A stretch of DNA of 21,846 bases from a virus (taxonomy: Duplodnaviria; Heunggongvirae; Uroviricota; Caudoviricetes): the IMG/VR virus record IMGVR_UViG_2778261514_000003. One strand, written 5' to 3'. The notes under the pieces were generated by a model. The model had not been told where the DNA came from and searched no databases. It saw only the letters and a list, made by a program, of their open reading frames with translations. A program made the position numbers and the translations under genes. Positions 1 through 11,998 of the stretch are shown here, one piece after another; the stretch's first letter is position 1; every line of letters begins with the position of its first letter.

Positions 1-63
1 CGAACCTGTATTTCAAAATTAAAGAAGACCGGCGTAAGGCGGCGCGGGGAGAGTAGACGATGA
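1..63 (+). CDS. Possible 3' end of an upstream gene truncated by the window start; basic C-terminal tail (...KTGVRRRGESRR)
   Basis: Frame 1 is open from base 1 to a TGA at 61-63, which overlaps the ATG at 60-62 of the next ORF (ATGA overlap, suggesting translational coupling). Only 20 codons are visible, so identity is unknown; a holin C-terminus is one possibility given the position upstream of the endolysin. Confidence 0.2.
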   Translation, partial: RTCISKLKKTGVRRRGESRR

Positions 64-569
64 ATAAACAATACGAACTGGTTGTTAAAGGGATAAATAA
101 TTACCCGGATAAGATTACTGTTACTGTAGCGCTGGAAACGGGTGGGTATACGTCACTGTTGTTGCCAAATGTGGTGATTGATCTTGATCGTGTTGAAGGT
201 GCCCCGCTGGAGTTTTACGAAGCTGAGGCGAAAAAGAAGGCGAAGCAGTTTTTCATGGATATTGCTGCCGGGTTATGTGAAGGGGATGAACAGTCACAGG
301 AAAAGTGCCTTTGTTCCGAAGATCGGTATACCATACAAATTAACAATGCATATAACACGATACTGTCAGAAAAAGATGATATCGAATCACGCATTGAAAA
401 ACTGGAGAATTGCGTTGTTGAACTGAATAAAAAACTGTCGACGCTGATGCCTTCTGAAGATGCAAAAAAACGCCGCGATGAGCAGTTCGCGGCGTTTTAC
501 GATTATTGCATTGAAGTTACTCGCAGGAATTTTGTGAAGGCTTTTGAGGAGAGTAAATCTCTTCAGTAA
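60..569 (+). CDS. Hypothetical protein, 169 aa, Lys/Glu-rich with predicted coiled-coil C-terminal half; function unknown (moron)
   Basis: Complete ORF with GGGAGA Shine-Dalgarno-like sequence about 7 nt upstream of the ATG. Visibly more AT-rich than the structural genes, by eye roughly 40% GC. No recognisable similarity to lambda proteins. Confidence 0.65.
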   Translation: MNKQYELVVKGINNYPDKITVTVALETGGYTSLLLPNVVIDLDRVEGAPLEFYEAEAKKKAKQFFMDIAAGLCEGDEQSQEKCLCSEDRYTIQINNAYNTILSEKDDIESRIEKLENCVVELNKKLSTLMPSEDAKKRRDEQFAAFYDYCIEVTRRNFVKAFEESKSLQ

Positions 570-779
570 GCTTAATGGCGGACGCTGCAATTAATTCAGG
601 AAGGTCCGCAAGGTCATCTGTCAGTGGGAATGATGAAAAATCGGCGGCAGTTCTGTTAAGAATTGCTTTAACTAATTCCTTTTCCTCATCCGGCAACACG
701 TTGATTAGAGCTACGACTGCTTGCCTGAGTGCGATTAAATCAGCAAAAGTTTGTTTTGGTAGATTTGGATAATCCATAG
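517..779 (-). CDS. Hypothetical small acidic protein, about 87 aa (MDYPNLPKQTFADLIALRQ...SQNSCE); function unknown
   Basis: Minus-strand ORF with start ATG at 777-779 (reverse complement) preceded by a GAGGTG ribosome-binding site. Protein is acidic (about 14 D/E versus 7 K/R). Its 3' end overlaps the 3' end of ORF 60-569 by 53 nt. The longer 161-aa version in the ORF track has no ribosome-binding site and would overlap the endolysin start. Confidence 0.45.
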
Positions 780-888
780 TCACCTCTGTGTTTATCAGAT
801 TGACATACCCTGGCCAGTGCCCACCACTGGCGGGGTGAAGGCTTAACATATCCAGGGATTCGGAACCGATAAATCCTGATAAATATCC

Positions 889-1422
889 ATGAACGCAAAA
901 ATCAAATACGGCCTGTCGGCTGTCGTTCTGGCGCTGATTGCCGCAGGGGCTTCTGCGCCTGAAATCCTCGACCAGTTTCTGGATGAAAAGGAAGGTAACC
1001 ACACCACGGCATACCGTGATGGTGCGGGTATCTGGACCATCTGCCGTGGAGCCACCCGGGTGGATGGTAAGCCTGTGATTCCTGGCATGAAGCTGTCGAA
1101 GGAAAAATGCGACCGGGTTAACGCTATCGAACGGGATAAGGCGCTGGCATGGGTGGCGAAAAACATCAGAGTGCCACTGACCGAACCTCAGAAAGCGGGT
1201 ATTGCGTCATTCTGCCCGTATAACATTGGCCCCGGTAAGTGTTTCCCGTCGACGTTTTATAAACGAATTAATGCAGGCGATCGCAGAGGAGCGTGTGAAG
1301 CGATTCGCTGGTGGATTAAGGACGGTGGCAGAGACTGCCGTATCCGCTCAAATAATTGCTACGGTCAGGTATCTCGTCGCGACCAGGAGAGTGCGCTGGC
1401 GTGCTGGGGTATCGACAGATAA
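889..1422 (+). CDS. R: Endolysin, SAR-type phage lysozyme (T4-lysozyme-like fold, N-terminal signal-arrest-release domain)
   Basis: 177 aa. N-terminal Gly/Ala-rich weakly hydrophobic segment (YGLSAVVLALIAAGASA) typical of SAR domains, followed by a lysozyme catalytic region (E...D...T within EGNHTTAYRDGAGIWTICRGAT). Position immediately upstream of Rz/Rz1. Confidence 0.88.
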   Translation: MNAKIKYGLSAVVLALIAAGASAPEILDQFLDEKEGNHTTAYRDGAGIWTICRGATRVDGKPVIPGMKLSKEKCDRVNAIERDKALAWVAKNIRVPLTEPQKAGIASFCPYNIGPGKCFPSTFYKRINAGDRRGACEAIRWWIKDGGRDCRIRSNNCYGQVSRRDQESALACWGIDR

Positions 1423-1516
1423 GCAGAATATTTTGCTGAAAAATGCGGTTTGCTCACACGGACGGATAACACGAAATCCTGCGAACTGACAAAAACTAAG
1501 TGAATAAAAGTAAAAA

Positions 1517-1550
1517 CCCCGTTTGTTGGCTGCAAGCGGGGTTTTGTGTT
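1517..1550 (+). terminator. Rho-independent terminator-like hairpin downstream of the endolysin
   Basis: 9-bp GC-rich stem (CCCCGTTTG / CAAGCGGGG, one G-U wobble) with 7-nt loop, followed by TTTTGTGTTT. An A-tract lies upstream, so it may act bidirectionally. Confidence 0.55.
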
Positions 1551-1578: not shown

Positions 1579-1761
1579 ATGGAAAAGTATAAACGAATTC
1601 TGTTGAGGTTGACTATGAAAAACGGCCTTGAACTGAAAGCGCCTGTAACTGATGACATCAGCAGAGCACTGGCTTTTGCCATTAAGTGGGTGGCGGTCGG
1701 TGTTGCTGTGTCCCCGATGCTGTATGGGCTGGCAAAACTGGTCATTGCGTTGAAATCGTGA
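1579..1761 (+). CDS. Small hypothetical protein, 60 aa, with a hydrophobic C-terminal segment (possible single transmembrane helix)
   Basis: ATG at 1579 preceded by AAGGGAG ribosome-binding site. The ORF-track start at 1546 is a GTG inside the terminator T-tract and is less likely. Hydrophobic stretch [28 protein letters not shown]. Confidence 0.4.
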
Positions 1762-1775
1762 AGGGAGGATTAAGC

Positions 1776-1907
1776 ATGTCAGACAAACTCATAACGCTGG
1801 CGAAGATCCTCTGTGTAATTGTCGGCATTTCATTTTCACTAATGCTGGTTGCTCTTTTTCTTTCCATGGCCTGGATGATGTTGTCTTCGTCGGGGCTGCT
1901 GGGGTGA
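1776..1907 (+). CDS. Small hydrophobic membrane protein, 43 aa ([43 protein letters not shown]); possible lysis-associated membrane protein
   Basis: ATG at 1776 preceded by a strong AAGGGAGGA ribosome-binding site. Its stop TGA (1905-1907) overlaps the GTG start of Rz at 1904 (GTGA), suggesting translational coupling. One or two predicted transmembrane helices. Confidence 0.4.
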
Positions 1908-11030: not shown

Positions 11031-11606
11031 ATGGCGATAAAAGGGCTTGATCAGGCGATTGATAATCTGAGCCGGGTTCGTAAAAACGCCATTCCGGCGG
11101 CTTCAGCAATGACGATTAACCGCGTGGCCACAACGGCGATTAATCAGTCTTCGTCACAGGTTGCCCGGGAAACCAGGGTGAGACGGAAACTGGTAAAGGA
11201 ACGGTCCAGACTGAAACGGGCGACGGTCAGAAATCCGAATGCCAGAATTATCGTTAACCGCGGTGATCTCCCTGTGATTAAGCTGGGGATCAGAATGCTG
11301 GGGCGTCGTCCGGACAGCATACTCAAAGCCGGTCAGCATCGTTATCAGCGGGCATTTATCCAGCGATTAAATAATTGGCGCTGGCATGTTATGCAACGTC
11401 TTCCCCAGGCCAGATATGAGGAGGGCAATGACGACAAGGGAAGGAAAAAGCGTAATCGCCTTCCCATTCAGGTGGTGAAAATCCCGATGGCGGCCCCACT
11501 GAAACAGGCATTTGATGAGAATGTTGACCGTATCCGGCGTGAACGCCTGCCTAAAGAACTGGCATACGCGCTGAAACAACAACTGAGGATTGCGATAAAA
11601 CGATGA
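11031..11606 (+). CDS. Z: Tail completion protein Z
   Basis: 191 aa. Similarity to lambda gpZ (MAIKGL.QA..NLSR...INRVA...SQVARET.VRRKLVKER.RLKRATV.NP). Confidence 0.9.
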   Translation: MAIKGLDQAIDNLSRVRKNAIPAASAMTINRVATTAINQSSSQVARETRVRRKLVKERSRLKRATVRNPNARIIVNRGDLPVIKLGIRMLGRRPDSILKAGQHRYQRAFIQRLNNWRWHVMQRLPQARYEEGNDDKGRKKRNRLPIQVVKIPMAAPLKQAFDENVDRIRRERLPKELAYALKQQLRIAIKR

Positions 11607-11998
11607 AACACACTGACATTCGTGCCGCAGTGCTGGATGCACTCGAGCAGCATGAACACGGGGCGACGCTGTTTGATGGTCGCCCCGTTGTTTTTGACGA
11701 AGAGGATTTTCCTGCGATCGCGGTTTATCTGACGGATGCAGAGTATACCGGTGAAGAGCTGGATGCAGATACCTGGCGGGCCACACTGCATATTGAGGTG
11801 TTTTTACCGGCACAGGTACCGGATTCAGAGCTTGATCAGTGGATGGAAAGCCGGATTTATCCGGCGATGACTGCGATCCCGGTACTGGCAGGACTGATTA
11901 CCACGATGGTTACGCAGGGCTATGAGTATCGTCGTGATGACGATATGGCGTTATGGAGCTCTGCGGATCTGACTTATTCCATTACATACGAGATGTGA
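11603..11998 (+). CDS. U: Tail terminator protein U
   Basis: 131 aa. ATGA overlap with Z. Similarity to lambda gpU ([45 protein letters not shown]). Confidence 0.92.

What the first reader, a model, noticed from the sequence alone, without database searches (positions are those of the whole stretch)
806..888. Perfect inverted repeat and direct repeats in the divergent spacer between the minus-strand ORF and the endolysin
GCCAGTG-CCCAC-CACTGGC (813-831) is a perfect 7-bp inverted repeat with a 5-bp spacer, sitting just downstream of a perfect TTGACA hexamer (800-805). Two direct GATAAAT repeats occur at 869-884, next to the endolysin start, which lacks an obvious Shine-Dalgarno sequence. This could be an operator for a regulator controlling the moron (or endolysin) independently of the late operon, or an RNA hairpin in the late transcript affecting endolysin translation.
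Basis: seen in the sequence. Interest (0 to 1): 0.4.

Follow-up and report, generated by a model that had tools for sequence, protein, structure and literature searches.

The report
Shared control module of phage morons
The palindrome and repeats upstream of the endolysin gene are one copy of a conserved, portable control region (probable promoter plus RNA stem-loop) that many lambda-like phages place in front of unrelated small backward-facing accessory genes ("reverse morons"); they are not an endolysin-specific operator.

Summary
TTGACA lies at 800-805, the perfect 7-bp inverted repeat at 813-819/825-831, and GATAAAT twice at 868-874 and 878-884. Alone these are weakly significant (shuffle P about 0.03 and 0.06).

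Comparison gives the meaning. Window 810-890, read on the minus strand, is a full-length copy of a conserved module. The same module sits 35-50 nt upstream of minus-strand small ORFs in HK97 (gene 23, annotated "reverse moron"), HK022, ES18, HK633, mEp213, SPN3UB and about 30 metagenomic phages, at several genome positions. A covariance model built only from those other copies hits the window at E = 1.2e-9.

The ORFs behind the module are unrelated, while the module is 86-96% conserved in its key blocks. The palindrome is its best-conserved block. It shows compensatory base-pair changes that fit an RNA hairpin in the leftward transcript. Invariant TAnnnT (window TATGTT, 850-845) and CA (about 836) fit a -10 element and a start site just before the hairpin. 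The window ORF has its own terminator (500-464).

The module abuts the endolysin ATG, which may explain the missing Shine-Dalgarno sequence. TTGACA is not conserved and has no -10 partner. Promoter activity and hairpin function remain inferred.

The parts
810..890 (-). Full-length copy of the conserved 'reverse-moron' 5' module (promoter-like region plus 5' stem-loop). It covers essentially the whole finding.
   Evidence: Covariance model R1 was built from 30 copies at other genome positions, with no R-linked sequence included. It matches 890..810 at 42.7 bits, E = 1.2e-9, model positions 1-83 of 83. Alignment A3.
813..831 (-).
   Evidence: It is the best-conserved block of the family (0.95-0.96 mean pairwise identity). 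As minus-strand RNA, 96% of cells are paired, and three pairs show changes on both sides (CG/UG/UA; AU/GU/GC/CG; CG/UA). No shuffle in 500 reached the observed covariation score.
807..836 (-). Extended 5'-terminal stem-loop of the predicted leftward transcript: outer helix 836-833 with 810-807, plus P1.
   Evidence: Fold of the leader from the predicted +1 gives ((((.(((((((.....)))))))..)))). The whole leader has dG -25.4 kcal/mol and z -2.66. In variant L205 the outer helix is kept by CCUC/GAGG.
836..838 (-). Predicted transcription start. A on the minus strand at 836 is the invariant CA of the family.
   Evidence: C (nearly invariant) and A (invariant) lie 7-8 nt after the TAnnnT hexamer in 47 sequences. 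This is inferred, not measured.
845..850 (-). -10-like hexamer TATGTT (AACATA on the + strand).
   Evidence: Exactly T1, A2 and T6 of this hexamer are invariant across 47 diverse copies, while the middle positions vary. It is the best promoter-like site of the spacer on either strand (PWM 8.1, rank 33 of 218,150 in the window). The best PWM site has its -10 here in 31 of 47 copies.
868..873 (-). -35-like hexamer TTTATC, 17 bp from the -10. It is the distal GATAAAT repeat (868-874) read on the other strand.
   Evidence: The match to TTGACA is weak (3 of 6). In tail-type copies the homologous position reads TGTTGC or TGTTAC.
875..881 (-). Invariant module word TATCAGG. It overlaps the proximal GATAAAT repeat (878-884).
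   Evidence: Invariant in all 47 aligned copies. In tail-type copies it starts a perfect IHF-type consensus, TATCAGGnTGTTR, in 30 of 30 sequences. The window copy, TATCAGGATTTAT, misses the last two positions.
779..804 (-). Second predicted leader hairpin, which partly occludes the Shine-Dalgarno sequence GAGGTG (787-782) of the 86-aa ORF. It is specific to this cassette type.
   Evidence: The segment 778-812 is type-specific.
517..777 (-). Reverse-moron ORF, 86 aa, function unknown (PHROG 2572).
   Evidence: The Pfam DUF1823 hit is only 15.3 bits against a cut-off of 25. There are too few differences among variants for a dN/dS verdict. GC is 40-43%, against 52-57% in R.
464..500 (-). Intrinsic terminator of the reverse moron: stem ACGCCGCG/CGCGGCGT with a 10-nt loop, then U7 on the minus strand. 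It is embedded in the + strand DUF1327 ORF.
   Evidence: dG -15.0 kcal/mol, T7; coordinates. The consensus scan missed it because the loop exceeds 8 nt.
889..1422 (+). SAR endolysin gene R. The module abuts its ATG directly, so it has no Shine-Dalgarno sequence.
   Evidence: The covariance-model alignment runs to 890. Relatives in other genera have S and R overlapping, with a Shine-Dalgarno sequence.
60..569 (+). DUF1327/YdfR-family gene, the convergent partner of the reverse moron in a composite insertion between holin and endolysin.
   Evidence: 118 bits. ES18 gp24, which sits next to ES18 gp25 and the module, is also DUF1327.

Best explanation
Window 810-890, read on the minus strand, is the 5' control module of a 'reverse moron'. 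This is an independently transcribed leftward gene (86-aa ORF at 777..517, with its own terminator at 500..464) inserted between the holin/DUF1327 genes and the endolysin of a Stx-phage-like E. coli prophage.

The module is a conserved, portable unit found in many lambdoid phages in front of unrelated small ORFs. The proposed working is as follows.
1. RNA polymerase starts leftward at about 836-838, from a weak sigma-70-type promoter. Its -10 is TATGTT (850..845). Its -35-like hexamer is TTTATC (873..868), which is the distal GATAAAT repeat. The invariant TATCAGG (881..875) overlaps the proximal repeat.
2. The hairpin acts in this RNA as a 5'-terminal structure, most plausibly protecting the moron mRNA from 5'-end-dependent decay. 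Its ORF-proximal edge also marks where different ORF cassettes are joined.
3. The module abuts the endolysin ATG. The endolysin leader in the late mRNA is therefore simply the complement of the moron's promoter region, which may explain the absence of a Shine-Dalgarno sequence.

Shown here: family membership, conservation, covariation, the terminator and the mosaic boundaries. Inferred: promoter activity, the start site and the stabilising role.
For: Membership:
- A covariance model made only from copies at other loci hits 890..810 at E = 1.2e-9, full length.
- The same block lies 35-50 nt 5' of minus-strand ORFs in several phages: HK97 gene 23 (annotated 'reverse moron product'), ES18 gp25 and HK022 gp23 (both annotated as morons), HK633_067, mEp213_072 and SPN3UB_0033. 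About 30 IMG/VR variants add to this. The positions differ: I/J, M/L, H/M, after Rz, and ydfR/R.

Portability:
- The downstream ORFs are mostly unrelated by BLASTP.
- Module blocks show 0.86-0.96 mean pairwise identity, against 0.2-0.35 in the ORFs.
- HK633 and mEp213 share only the 149-nt module.

Independent transcription unit:
- Canonical terminators follow the stops of ORF types A, B and E.
- GC is 40-43%, against 52-57% in R.
- The insertion is absent from relatives.
- The neighbours on the promoter side differ between copies, so the promoter must lie in the module.

Promoter:
- Invariant T, A and T of TAnnnT, and invariant CA 7-8 nt downstream.
- Best PWM site of the spacer.
- The -10 falls at the same alignment column in 31 of 47 copies.

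RNA hairpin on the minus strand:
- 96% of cells paired, three pairs with changes on both sides, and no shuffle reaching the covariation score.
- The tail-type family pairs at 98.3% as minus-strand RNA, against 89.2% as plus-strand RNA.
- The outer helix is kept by compensatory change in a type-A variant.

Boundaries:
- The segment swapped between type A and type D is window 510-812, ending exactly at the palindrome.
- Types B, C, D and F diverge within 1-2 nt of it.
- HK97 and HK022 homology starts 4 nt before it.

The moron definition (own promoter and terminator) is taken from PMC3594210.
Against: - No transcription start has been measured.
- The -35 is poor. A site scoring as well as this promoter is expected about 0.17 times by chance in a spacer of this size (derived from the rank). 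In tail-type copies the PWM score is low, 3.7-5. The promoter may therefore need an activator or lie elsewhere.
- Within the R-linked subfamily the stem polymorphisms pair slightly better on the + strand (94.9% against 91.9%). Several common variants carry a mismatch on the minus strand.
- The helix is a DNA palindrome, so both transcripts can form it.
- High conservation could partly reflect recombination-driven homogenisation rather than function.
- The stabiliser role is an analogy. In several cassette types 4-5 nt stay unpaired at the predicted 5' end.
Confidence: 0.6

Rival explanations
1. DNA operator. A dimeric regulator (phage or host) binds the 7-bp dyad, or the CAGG-N18-CCTG dyad around the -35, and represses or activates the moron or the endolysin.
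For: The dyad is perfect, with a 5-bp centre. It would lie at about +6 to +24 of the predicted promoter, a classic repressor position. A second, nearly invariant dyad, CAGG..CCTG, flanks the -35 region. Tail-type copies carry a perfect IHF-type consensus there.
Against: - The palindrome precedes many unrelated ORFs, so it cannot be the operator of the 86-aa product.
- No ORF tested has a Pfam hit above cut-off.
- The commonest state in the larger subfamily is an asymmetric T-G pair (19 of 47). Pairs also change CG->UA and AU->GC/CG, which is the pattern of RNA pairing.
- TTGACA 800-805 has no -10 partner.
Confidence: 0.12
2. The structure acts in the rightward late mRNA. The hairpin 807-836 upstream of the Shine-Dalgarno-less endolysin start protects or insulates the R cistron, for example as a barrier to RNase E scanning from the long untranslated antisense stretch, or it tunes R translation.
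For: - The + strand hairpin is as stable as the other or more so (-20.0 against -18.5 kcal/mol).
- In the R-linked subfamily the variants lean to + strand pairing (94.9% against 91.9%).
- About 320 nt upstream of R are untranslated in the late transcript.
- Cassettes without a minus ORF (YYZ-2008 type) lack the complete hairpin.
Against: - The same hairpin is conserved where no endolysin follows.
- In that larger family the majority U-G pair would be an A-C mismatch on the + strand (89.2% against 98.3%).
- The hairpin lies 57 nt from the R ATG and does not touch the start region.
Confidence: 0.12
3. No present function: the block is a recombination linker or relic. It is conserved because homologous exchange between phages keeps copying it. 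The palindrome merely marks a favoured breakpoint, or arose by quasi-palindrome correction.
For: Breakpoints cluster at the palindrome edge. Deletion derivatives with breakpoints inside the module are common and viable: the YYZ-2008, K-12 Qin, L201 and L202 types. Mismatched stem variants reach appreciable frequency.
Against: Conservation is not uniform. Exactly T, A and T of a -10-like hexamer and the CA are invariant, while neighbouring positions vary. Compensatory pair changes keep the helix. The ORFs have terminators and therefore need a promoter, and only the module is common to all contexts.
Confidence: 0.12
4. Terminator or small RNA. The hairpin is an intrinsic terminator or attenuator, or part of a + strand small RNA that ends at the downstream terminator seen in tail-region copies.
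For: In cassette type C the hairpin is followed by U4-5 on the minus strand. In tail copies the block is followed on the + strand by a strong terminator, AGCCACC..GGTGGCT plus T6-8.
Against: In the window no U-run follows on either strand. There is no Rfam match in the window or in tail copies. No + strand promoter is conserved upstream of the hairpin. ES18's depositors assign the + terminator to the rightward moron gene 24.
Confidence: 0.04

Closest known systems
Morons of lambdoid phages, in particular the HK97 gene 22/23 and ES18 gene 24/25 'moron / reverse moron' pairs (Juhala et al. 2000, as summarised in PMC3594210; GenBank AF069529, AY736146)
   Same: A small gene inserted into the late operon, of different GC content, with its own terminator, and absent from related genomes. 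The window's spacer is homologous to the sequence 5' of HK97 gene 23 and ES18 gene 25. ES18 gp24 and the window's upstream gene are both DUF1327.
   Different: Here the insertion lies between holin and endolysin, and the module abuts the endolysin start codon instead of a + strand terminator. The ORF is unrelated. The GenBank records seen here annotate only terminators, not this module.
PeSLs (promoter-early stem-loops) of T4-type phages: mobile regulatory cassettes that mediate modular shuffling (PMC2839356, PMC4122927)
   Same: A short conserved promoter-plus-stem-loop unit flanks unrelated ORFan genes. Recombination breakpoints sit at the unit, and it acts as a linker for cassette exchange.
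   Different: There is no sequence relation. PeSLs have strong sigma-70 promoters and their stem-loops are effective terminators; here the promoter is weak by consensus and the hairpin has no U-tract. PeSLs occur many times per genome, whereas this window holds one good copy. Mini-circles were not examined.
5'-terminal stem-loop mRNA stabilisers of E. coli (ompA 5' UTR type; from my own knowledge of Emory, Bouvet and Belasco 1992)
   Same: A stable hairpin at or within a few nt of the predicted 5' end of the transcript. In the window the first nucleotides are paired.
   Different: Neither the 5' end nor any effect on half-life has been measured. In several cassette types 4-5 nt are predicted to be unpaired.
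Palindromic operators of phage repressors (lambda, P22 Arc/Mnt)
   Same: Dyad symmetry close to a promoter.
   Different: The stem varies by G-U intermediates and compensatory pairs. No cognate DNA-binding protein was found, and the adjacent ORFs are interchangeable.

Membership tests
Reverse-moron 5' module (HK97 gene 23 / ES18 gene 25 type; family defined here) | Sequence and structure match to a model built from copies at other loci | tested here: met
   Model R1 (30 tail-type copies, none R-linked) hits window 890..810 at 42.7 bits, E = 1.2e-9, positions 1-83 of 83.
Reverse-moron 5' module (HK97 gene 23 / ES18 gene 25 type; family defined here) | Lies 35-50 nt 5' of a small ORF transcribed against the late operon | tested here: met
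   The ORF ATG is at 777 and the hairpin ends at 813, a gap of 35 nt. The same layout is seen in HK97, HK022, ES18, HK633, mEp213 and SPN3UB.
Reverse-moron 5' module (HK97 gene 23 / ES18 gene 25 type; family defined here) | P1 hairpin of 8 pairs, with invariant TAnnnT, CA and TATCAGG | tested here: met
   The window copy has 7 of 8 pairs (the outermost is C-C, replaced by an alternative outer helix), plus TATGTT, CA and TATCAGG.
Reverse-moron 5' module (HK97 gene 23 / ES18 gene 25 type; family defined here) | Bounded upstream by a + strand terminator, and followed by the GGAGGG-ATGGCTGATTACCTC leader element | tested here: not met
   In the window the terminator's place is taken by the R start codon. 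The type-A leader lacks ATGGCTGA; types B, C and F keep it. The window is therefore a truncated or variant member.
Moron (independent transcription unit added to a phage operon) | Absent at this position in related genomes | tested here: met
   S and R overlap in other Enterobacteriaceae. YYZ-2008 has ydfR directly before R.
Moron (independent transcription unit added to a phage operon) | Own transcription terminator | tested here: met
   Minus-strand stem ACGCCGCG/CGCGGCGT plus U7 at 500..464, dG -15 kcal/mol.
Moron (independent transcription unit added to a phage operon) | Own promoter | tested here: inconclusive
   Conserved TAnnnT and CA, and the best PWM site of the spacer. The -35 is weak and there are no transcript data.
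Moron (independent transcription unit added to a phage operon) | Base composition differs from the neighbours | tested here: met
   GC is 40-43% over 300-800, against 52-57% in R.
Moron (independent transcription unit added to a phage operon) | Expressed from the repressed prophage | not testable with these tools
   This needs RNA from a lysogen.
PeSL (T4-type promoter-early stem-loop) | Strong sigma-70 promoter, plus a stem-loop that terminates transcription | tested here: not met
   The consensus scan finds no promoter in the spacer. PWM scores are 8.1 here and 3.7-5 in tail copies. No U-tract follows the hairpin in the window.
PeSL (T4-type promoter-early stem-loop) | Many copies per genome, flanking ORFans | tested here: not met
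   There is one good copy in the 21.8-kb window. The second hit (E = 0.017) lies inside coding sequence.
Intrinsic terminator | GC-rich hairpin followed by a U-run | tested here: not met
   GGGGTGAAG follows on the + strand and CAGGGTATG on the minus strand. A U-run is present only in cassette type C.
Palindromic protein operator | Both half-sites conserved symmetrically, with a cognate DNA-binding protein nearby | tested here: not met
   Asymmetric T-G pairs are the majority state at one position, and other pairs change in a compensatory way. The adjacent ORFs are interchangeable and have no Pfam hit above cut-off.
5'-terminal stem-loop mRNA stabiliser | Hairpin within a few nt of the 5' end, and a measurable effect on half-life | not testable with these tools
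   The position is consistent if +1 is 836. Neither the 5' end nor decay has been measured.
Any Rfam family | Covariance-model match | tested here: not met
   No hit at gathering threshold in the window or in three tail-type loci. Nothing lies in 778-900 even at E <= 10.

The most novel reading that the evidence does not exclude
The module may be a dedicated 'expression slot' for accessory genes in lambdoid prophages. It would be a conserved promoter, IHF-type site and 5' stem-loop linker, with a terminator at the far end, between which unrelated (or hyper-divergent) small ORFs are swapped. The hairpin edge would be the preferred joint. That would make it a PeSL- or integron-like gene-shuffling system in temperate phages. 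It would contradict the published view that moron accretion does not depend on conserved flanking sequences (PMC2839356).
Probability: 0.25. Interest if true: 0.75.

Novelty: new variant of a known kind. Interest (0 to 1): 0.5.

Why it matters
Morons carry lysogenic-conversion, exclusion and virulence functions. They are usually pictured as landing in phage genomes by rare illegitimate recombination, without conserved flanks.

This finding points to a family of leftward morons, spread over E. coli and Salmonella lambdoid phages including Stx-phage-like prophages. They share one highly conserved non-coding control module, while their coding parts are unrelated.

If the module is an active promoter and leader, three things follow:
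- It gives a ready handle to predict which small prophage ORFs are expressed in lysogens.
- It provides a portable expression element.
- It offers a mechanism (homologous exchange at the module) for rapid turnover of accessory genes.

It may also explain a local oddity: the Stx-type SAR endolysin has no Shine-Dalgarno sequence because a moron promoter region abuts its start codon. That may bear on how endolysin dosage and lysis timing (and so toxin release) are set.

Tried and rejected
1. TTGACA 800-805 as a rightward promoter. Rejected: the partner -10 is ACCACT, the consensus scan is negative, and the hexamer lies in the type-specific segment.

2. My own early idea that the right arm of the palindrome is a relic of the 3' end of ydfR (YYZ-2008 ...CCACCGCTGGCCTGA). 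Reversed: the complete block exists in many phages at loci with no ydfR-type sequence upstream of it, for example HK97. The ydfR tail of the YYZ type is better read as a module truncated inside the hairpin loop.

3. Intrinsic terminator on either strand. Rejected for the window; a U-run is present only in type C.

4. Known RNA family. None found in Rfam.

5. Strand assignment from single polymorphisms in the R-linked copies. This leaned to the + strand but was not significant, and it was overturned by the deeper family.

6. A conserved RNA hairpin in the last 50 nt before R (CAGGG..YCCUG). Only four invariant pairs, and the inner pairs are not kept. It lies upstream of the predicted leftward start, so it is at most a DNA dyad or a + strand feature.

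7. Function of the 86-aa protein and the other reverse-moron proteins. Pfam, PHROGs and PADLOC give no function. dN/dS for type A is uninformative (10-14 differences), while type E gives 0.2-0.4.

8. Other promoter types (sigma-54, sigma-32, sigma-E, checked by eye only). No conserved match.

9. Literature. No accessible paper describes this module or a start site here. Juhala 2000, Casjens 2005 and Cumby 2012 are not held in the library.

10. Second covariance-model hit at 11541-11627. It lies inside + strand structural genes with no minus ORF, and is treated as chance.
Full report
CONTEXT. The window is the late region of a lambdoid, Stx-phage-like E. coli prophage. It is 98% identical to Escherichia phage PhiR12_1, and identical stretches occur in many E. 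coli chromosomes. The gene order is:
- the 3' end of the holin gene (its start lies just upstream of the window);
- a DUF1327/YdfR-family gene, 60..569 (+);
- a minus-strand ORF, 517..777 (86 aa);
- the 111-nt spacer of the finding;
- the SAR endolysin gene R, 889..1422;
- a bidirectional terminator, 1513-1545;
- two small ORFs, then Rz/Rz1 and terminase.

OBSERVATION. TTGACA lies at 800-805. GCCAGTG (813-819) and CACTGGC (825-831) form a perfect inverted repeat. GATAAAT occurs at 868-874 and 878-884. No Shine-Dalgarno sequence precedes the R ATG. Taken alone these are weak signals. The window holds 17 perfect 7-bp inverted repeats against about 9 expected. The chance of one in a shuffled spacer is 0.027, and of the direct repeat 0.058. 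The hairpin is nevertheless more stable than in dinucleotide shuffles of the spacer (P about 0.01), and it extends to an interrupted helix of about 11 bp at 807-836.

FIRST ROUND OF COMPARISON. I anchored on the R start in 120 IMG/VR loci and in annotated phages.
- The last 50 nt or so before R are shared by nearly all cassette types, including YYZ-2008, which has ydfR directly upstream and no minus ORF.
- Only ATAAATATC[C/T]ATG is kept in every E. coli-type R examined. In K-12 Qin the ydfR stop overlaps the rrrQ ATG.
- In other genera S and R overlap, with a normal Shine-Dalgarno sequence.
- The palindrome block GCCAGTGCCCACCACTGGCGGG(G/C)TGAAG is shared by cassettes carrying at least five unrelated minus-strand ORFs. 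These are types A (the window), B, C, D and F. Homology between types begins within 1-2 nt of the left arm.
- Against Stx1a phage Stx1_14040 the window is homologous over 3-509 and 813-1000. The swapped piece is therefore 510-812, that is, the ORF plus its type-specific leader.
- Another cassette type, E, has a different but equally significant hairpin at the same place.

THE MINUS-STRAND GENES ARE REAL TRANSCRIPTION UNITS. Types A, B and E each have a canonical intrinsic terminator on the minus strand just past the stop codon. In the window this is the stem ACGCCGCG/CGCGGCGT plus U7 at 500..464, with dG -15 kcal/mol. The simple scan missed it because of its 10-nt loop. The type C and type E ORF families stay open over deep divergence, and type E has dN/dS of 0.2-0.4. 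Type A has too few differences to judge. GC over 300-800 is 40-43%, against 52-57% in R. [quoted passage not shown]

THE KEY RESULT. The palindrome block is not specific to the endolysin.
- An exact-word scan found it in tail regions of other phages.
- BLAST then placed it in HK97 (5' of gene 23, annotated 'reverse moron product'), HK022 (gp23), ES18 (gp25, 'possible moron'), HK633, mEp213, SPN3UB and others.
- A further scan gave about 30 distinct metagenomic versions.
- In every case the block lies 35-50 nt 5' of a small ORF that runs against the late operon. The surroundings differ: between I and J, between M and L, between the tape-measure side and M, after Rz, or between ydfR and R.
- The ORFs behind it are mostly unrelated by BLASTP. 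An alignment hints at a very divergent helical family.
- The conservation profile is striking. Mean pairwise identity is 0.86-0.96 in the key module blocks, the palindrome is the highest at 0.95-0.96, and values drop to 0.2-0.35 (random level) in the ORFs.
- HK633 and mEp213 share nothing but the 149-nt module. HK97 and HK022 become homologous again 4 nt before the palindrome.
- ES18 gp24, the rightward partner gene, is DUF1327 like the window's 60..569 gene. The composite [DUF1327 (+) / reverse ORF (-) / module] is therefore itself mobile.
- A covariance model built from 30 tail-type copies only, with no R-linked sequence, matches window 890..810 on the minus strand full length, at 42.7 bits and E = 1.2e-9.

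The finding's coordinates are thus essentially one copy of this module. This also reverses my earlier idea that the right arm was a relic of the ydfR 3' end. The 'ydfR tail' of YYZ-2008 is better read as a module truncated within the hairpin loop. The K-12 Qin, L201 and L202 arrangements look like further deletion derivatives.

ANATOMY OF THE MODULE (minus-strand orientation; alignment A3, 47 sequences). The invariant positions are:
- TATCAGG (window 881..875);
- the T, A and T of a hexamer TAnnnT (window TATGTT, 850..845), whose middle positions vary freely;
- a CA 7-8 nt further on (window 837/836; the A invariant, the C nearly so);
- most of the hairpin.

This is the conservation pattern expected of a -10 element and a start site. 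A position-weight scan of the window ranks TTTATC-17-TATGTT on the minus strand as the best promoter-like site of the spacer. Its score is 8.1 and its rank 33 of 218,150, so about 0.17 such sites are expected by chance in the spacer. The best site has its -10 at the same alignment column in 31 of 47 copies, although tail-type scores are low. The sequences on the far side of the module differ between copies (J, L, M, R, others). The promoter that these terminator-equipped ORFs need must therefore lie inside the module. That is an inference, but a strong one.

The two GATAAAT repeats resolve as follows. The distal one is the -35-like TTTATC. The proximal one overlaps the invariant TATCAGG.

THE HAIRPIN. 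On alignment A3, read as minus-strand RNA, the 8-pair helix is paired in 96% of cells. Three pairs have changes on both sides:
- CG 21 / UG 19 / UA 6;
- AU 43 / GU 2 / CG 1 / GC 1;
- CG / UA.

No shuffle in 500 reached the observed covariation score, and slid controls collapse to 31-39% pairing. In the large tail-type family pairing is 98.3% as minus-strand RNA and 89.2% as plus-strand RNA. In the 17 R-linked variants it is 91.9% against 94.9%. The deep covariation therefore favours an RNA helix in the leftward transcript. The shallow polymorphism next to R does not, and a second role in the late mRNA stays open.

Folded from the predicted +1 (A836), the window's leader begins fully paired: ((((.(((((((.....)))))))..)))), covering 836-807. 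A second hairpin, 804-779, partly covers the Shine-Dalgarno sequence GAGGUG (total dG -25.4 kcal/mol, z -2.66). A type-A variant keeps the outer helix through CCUC/GAGG. In tail-type leaders RNAalifold instead pairs the 5' CAGCC with an invariant GGCUG further down; there is no covariation, since both are invariant.

MECHANISM PROPOSED. A weak, possibly factor-dependent promoter in the module fires leftward in the lysogen. The transcript starts at the base of the stem-loop. The hairpin acts as a 5'-terminal structure, most plausibly stabilising the mRNA. That role is an analogy to ompA-type 5' stem-loops, drawn from my own knowledge and not tested here. The ORF is translated from GAGGTG, and transcription ends at 500..464. 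The constant module and the constant left flank allow ORF cassettes to be exchanged by homologous recombination, with joints at the hairpin edge. Because the module abuts the R ATG, R has no Shine-Dalgarno sequence; how R is then translated is not resolved.

COMPARISON WITH KNOWN SYSTEMS. The window copy is a moron in the HK97 sense and a variant member of the gene-23/gene-25 reverse-moron family. It lacks the upstream + strand terminator and the ATGGCTGA leader element of the tail copies. Functionally the module resembles the PeSLs of T4-type phages, which are conserved promoter-plus-stem-loop cassettes that flank ORFans and mediate shuffling (PMC2839356). It fails the PeSL criteria, however: no strong promoter, no terminating stem-loop, not many copies per genome. 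It is not related in sequence. [quoted passage not shown] I found no accessible paper describing the module. The original HK97/HK022 and ES18 papers are not in the library, so prior notice there cannot be excluded.

VERDICT. The element is a conserved, portable moron control module. Its palindrome most likely acts as an RNA stem-loop in the leftward transcript, not as an operator and not as an endolysin-specific device. Promoter activity, the start site and the hairpin's role are inferred and need the experiments listed under next steps.

Noticed in passing
window 464-500: A strong minus-strand intrinsic terminator (7-8 bp GC stem, 10-nt loop, U7) is embedded in the coding sequence of the + strand DUF1327 gene (…KKRRDEQFAAFYDY…). 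The same coding motif, and so presumably the same terminator, recurs in other cassette types.
   Followed up: partly
window 1513-1545 and 1579..1907: A bidirectional-looking terminator (AAAACCCCG…CGGGGTTTT) follows R directly. Two small hydrophobic + strand ORFs (60 and 43 aa; PHROGs 1115 and 4906) lie between R and Rz. In related phages this slot holds ant or other genes, so it appears to be a second variable insertion site in the lysis cassette.
   Followed up: no
window 889; loci L200-L279: The E. coli-type SAR endolysin has no Shine-Dalgarno sequence. All three reading frames are closed in its leader (TGA 836, TAA 844, TAA 870, TGA-TAA 877-882). In other genera R overlaps the holin stop and has a good Shine-Dalgarno sequence. 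In K-12 Qin the ydfR stop overlaps the rrrQ ATG. How R is translated in the window's arrangement is unexplained.
   Followed up: partly
alignment A5 columns 10-22 (homologous to window 881..869): All 30 tail-type module copies match the IHF consensus WATCAR-N4-TTR (TATCAGGnTGTTR), overlapping the -35 area. The window copy (TATCAGGATTTAT) misses the last two positions. A nearly invariant DNA dyad, CAGG-N18-CCTG, brackets the same area.
   Followed up: partly
leaders of HK022, ES18, HK633, SPN3UB and others (L341-L345); cassette types B, C, F: About 20 nt after the hairpin the leaders share GGAGGG-ATGGCTGATTACCTCTGA. This is either a mini-ORF (MADYL*) with a strong Shine-Dalgarno sequence, or an RNA element whose GGCUG can pair with the 5' CAGCC. 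The window's type A lacks it.
   Followed up: partly
reverse-moron proteins (window 517..777 and L006, L020, L340-L345): The small proteins behind the module are unrelated by BLASTP. They share size (70-105 aa), predicted helical character and a loose N-terminal pattern (L..V..L..E....K.A...L...I). They may form one hyper-divergent family under diversifying selection. No match was found in Pfam or PADLOC.
   Followed up: partly
L341 (ES18 gp24), L325 (75-aa + ORF), window 60..569: DUF1327/YdfR-family genes accompany the reverse moron both in the ES18 tail region and in the lysis cassette. The convergent gene pair plus module therefore seems to move as a unit. In the window the DUF1327 protein carries an 89-aa C-terminal extension that overlaps the reverse ORF's 3' end.
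   Followed up: partly
cassette type C (L027, L066, L137): In this type only, the palindrome is followed by U4-5 on the minus strand. This gives a terminator- or attenuator-like arrangement directly after the predicted start, and before a 12-codon upstream ORF (MAEIYLTISVED*).
   Followed up: no
window 11541-11627 (minus strand): A weak second match to the module model (14.7 bits, E = 0.017, with rough calibration) lies across the junction of two + strand structural genes. There is no minus-strand ORF, so it is probably chance.
   Followed up: yes
L296 (metagenome contig): A variant with a 10-nt tandem duplication inside the hairpin (CCACCACTGG CCACCACTGG). It shows that slippage occurs at this palindrome.
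   Followed up: no
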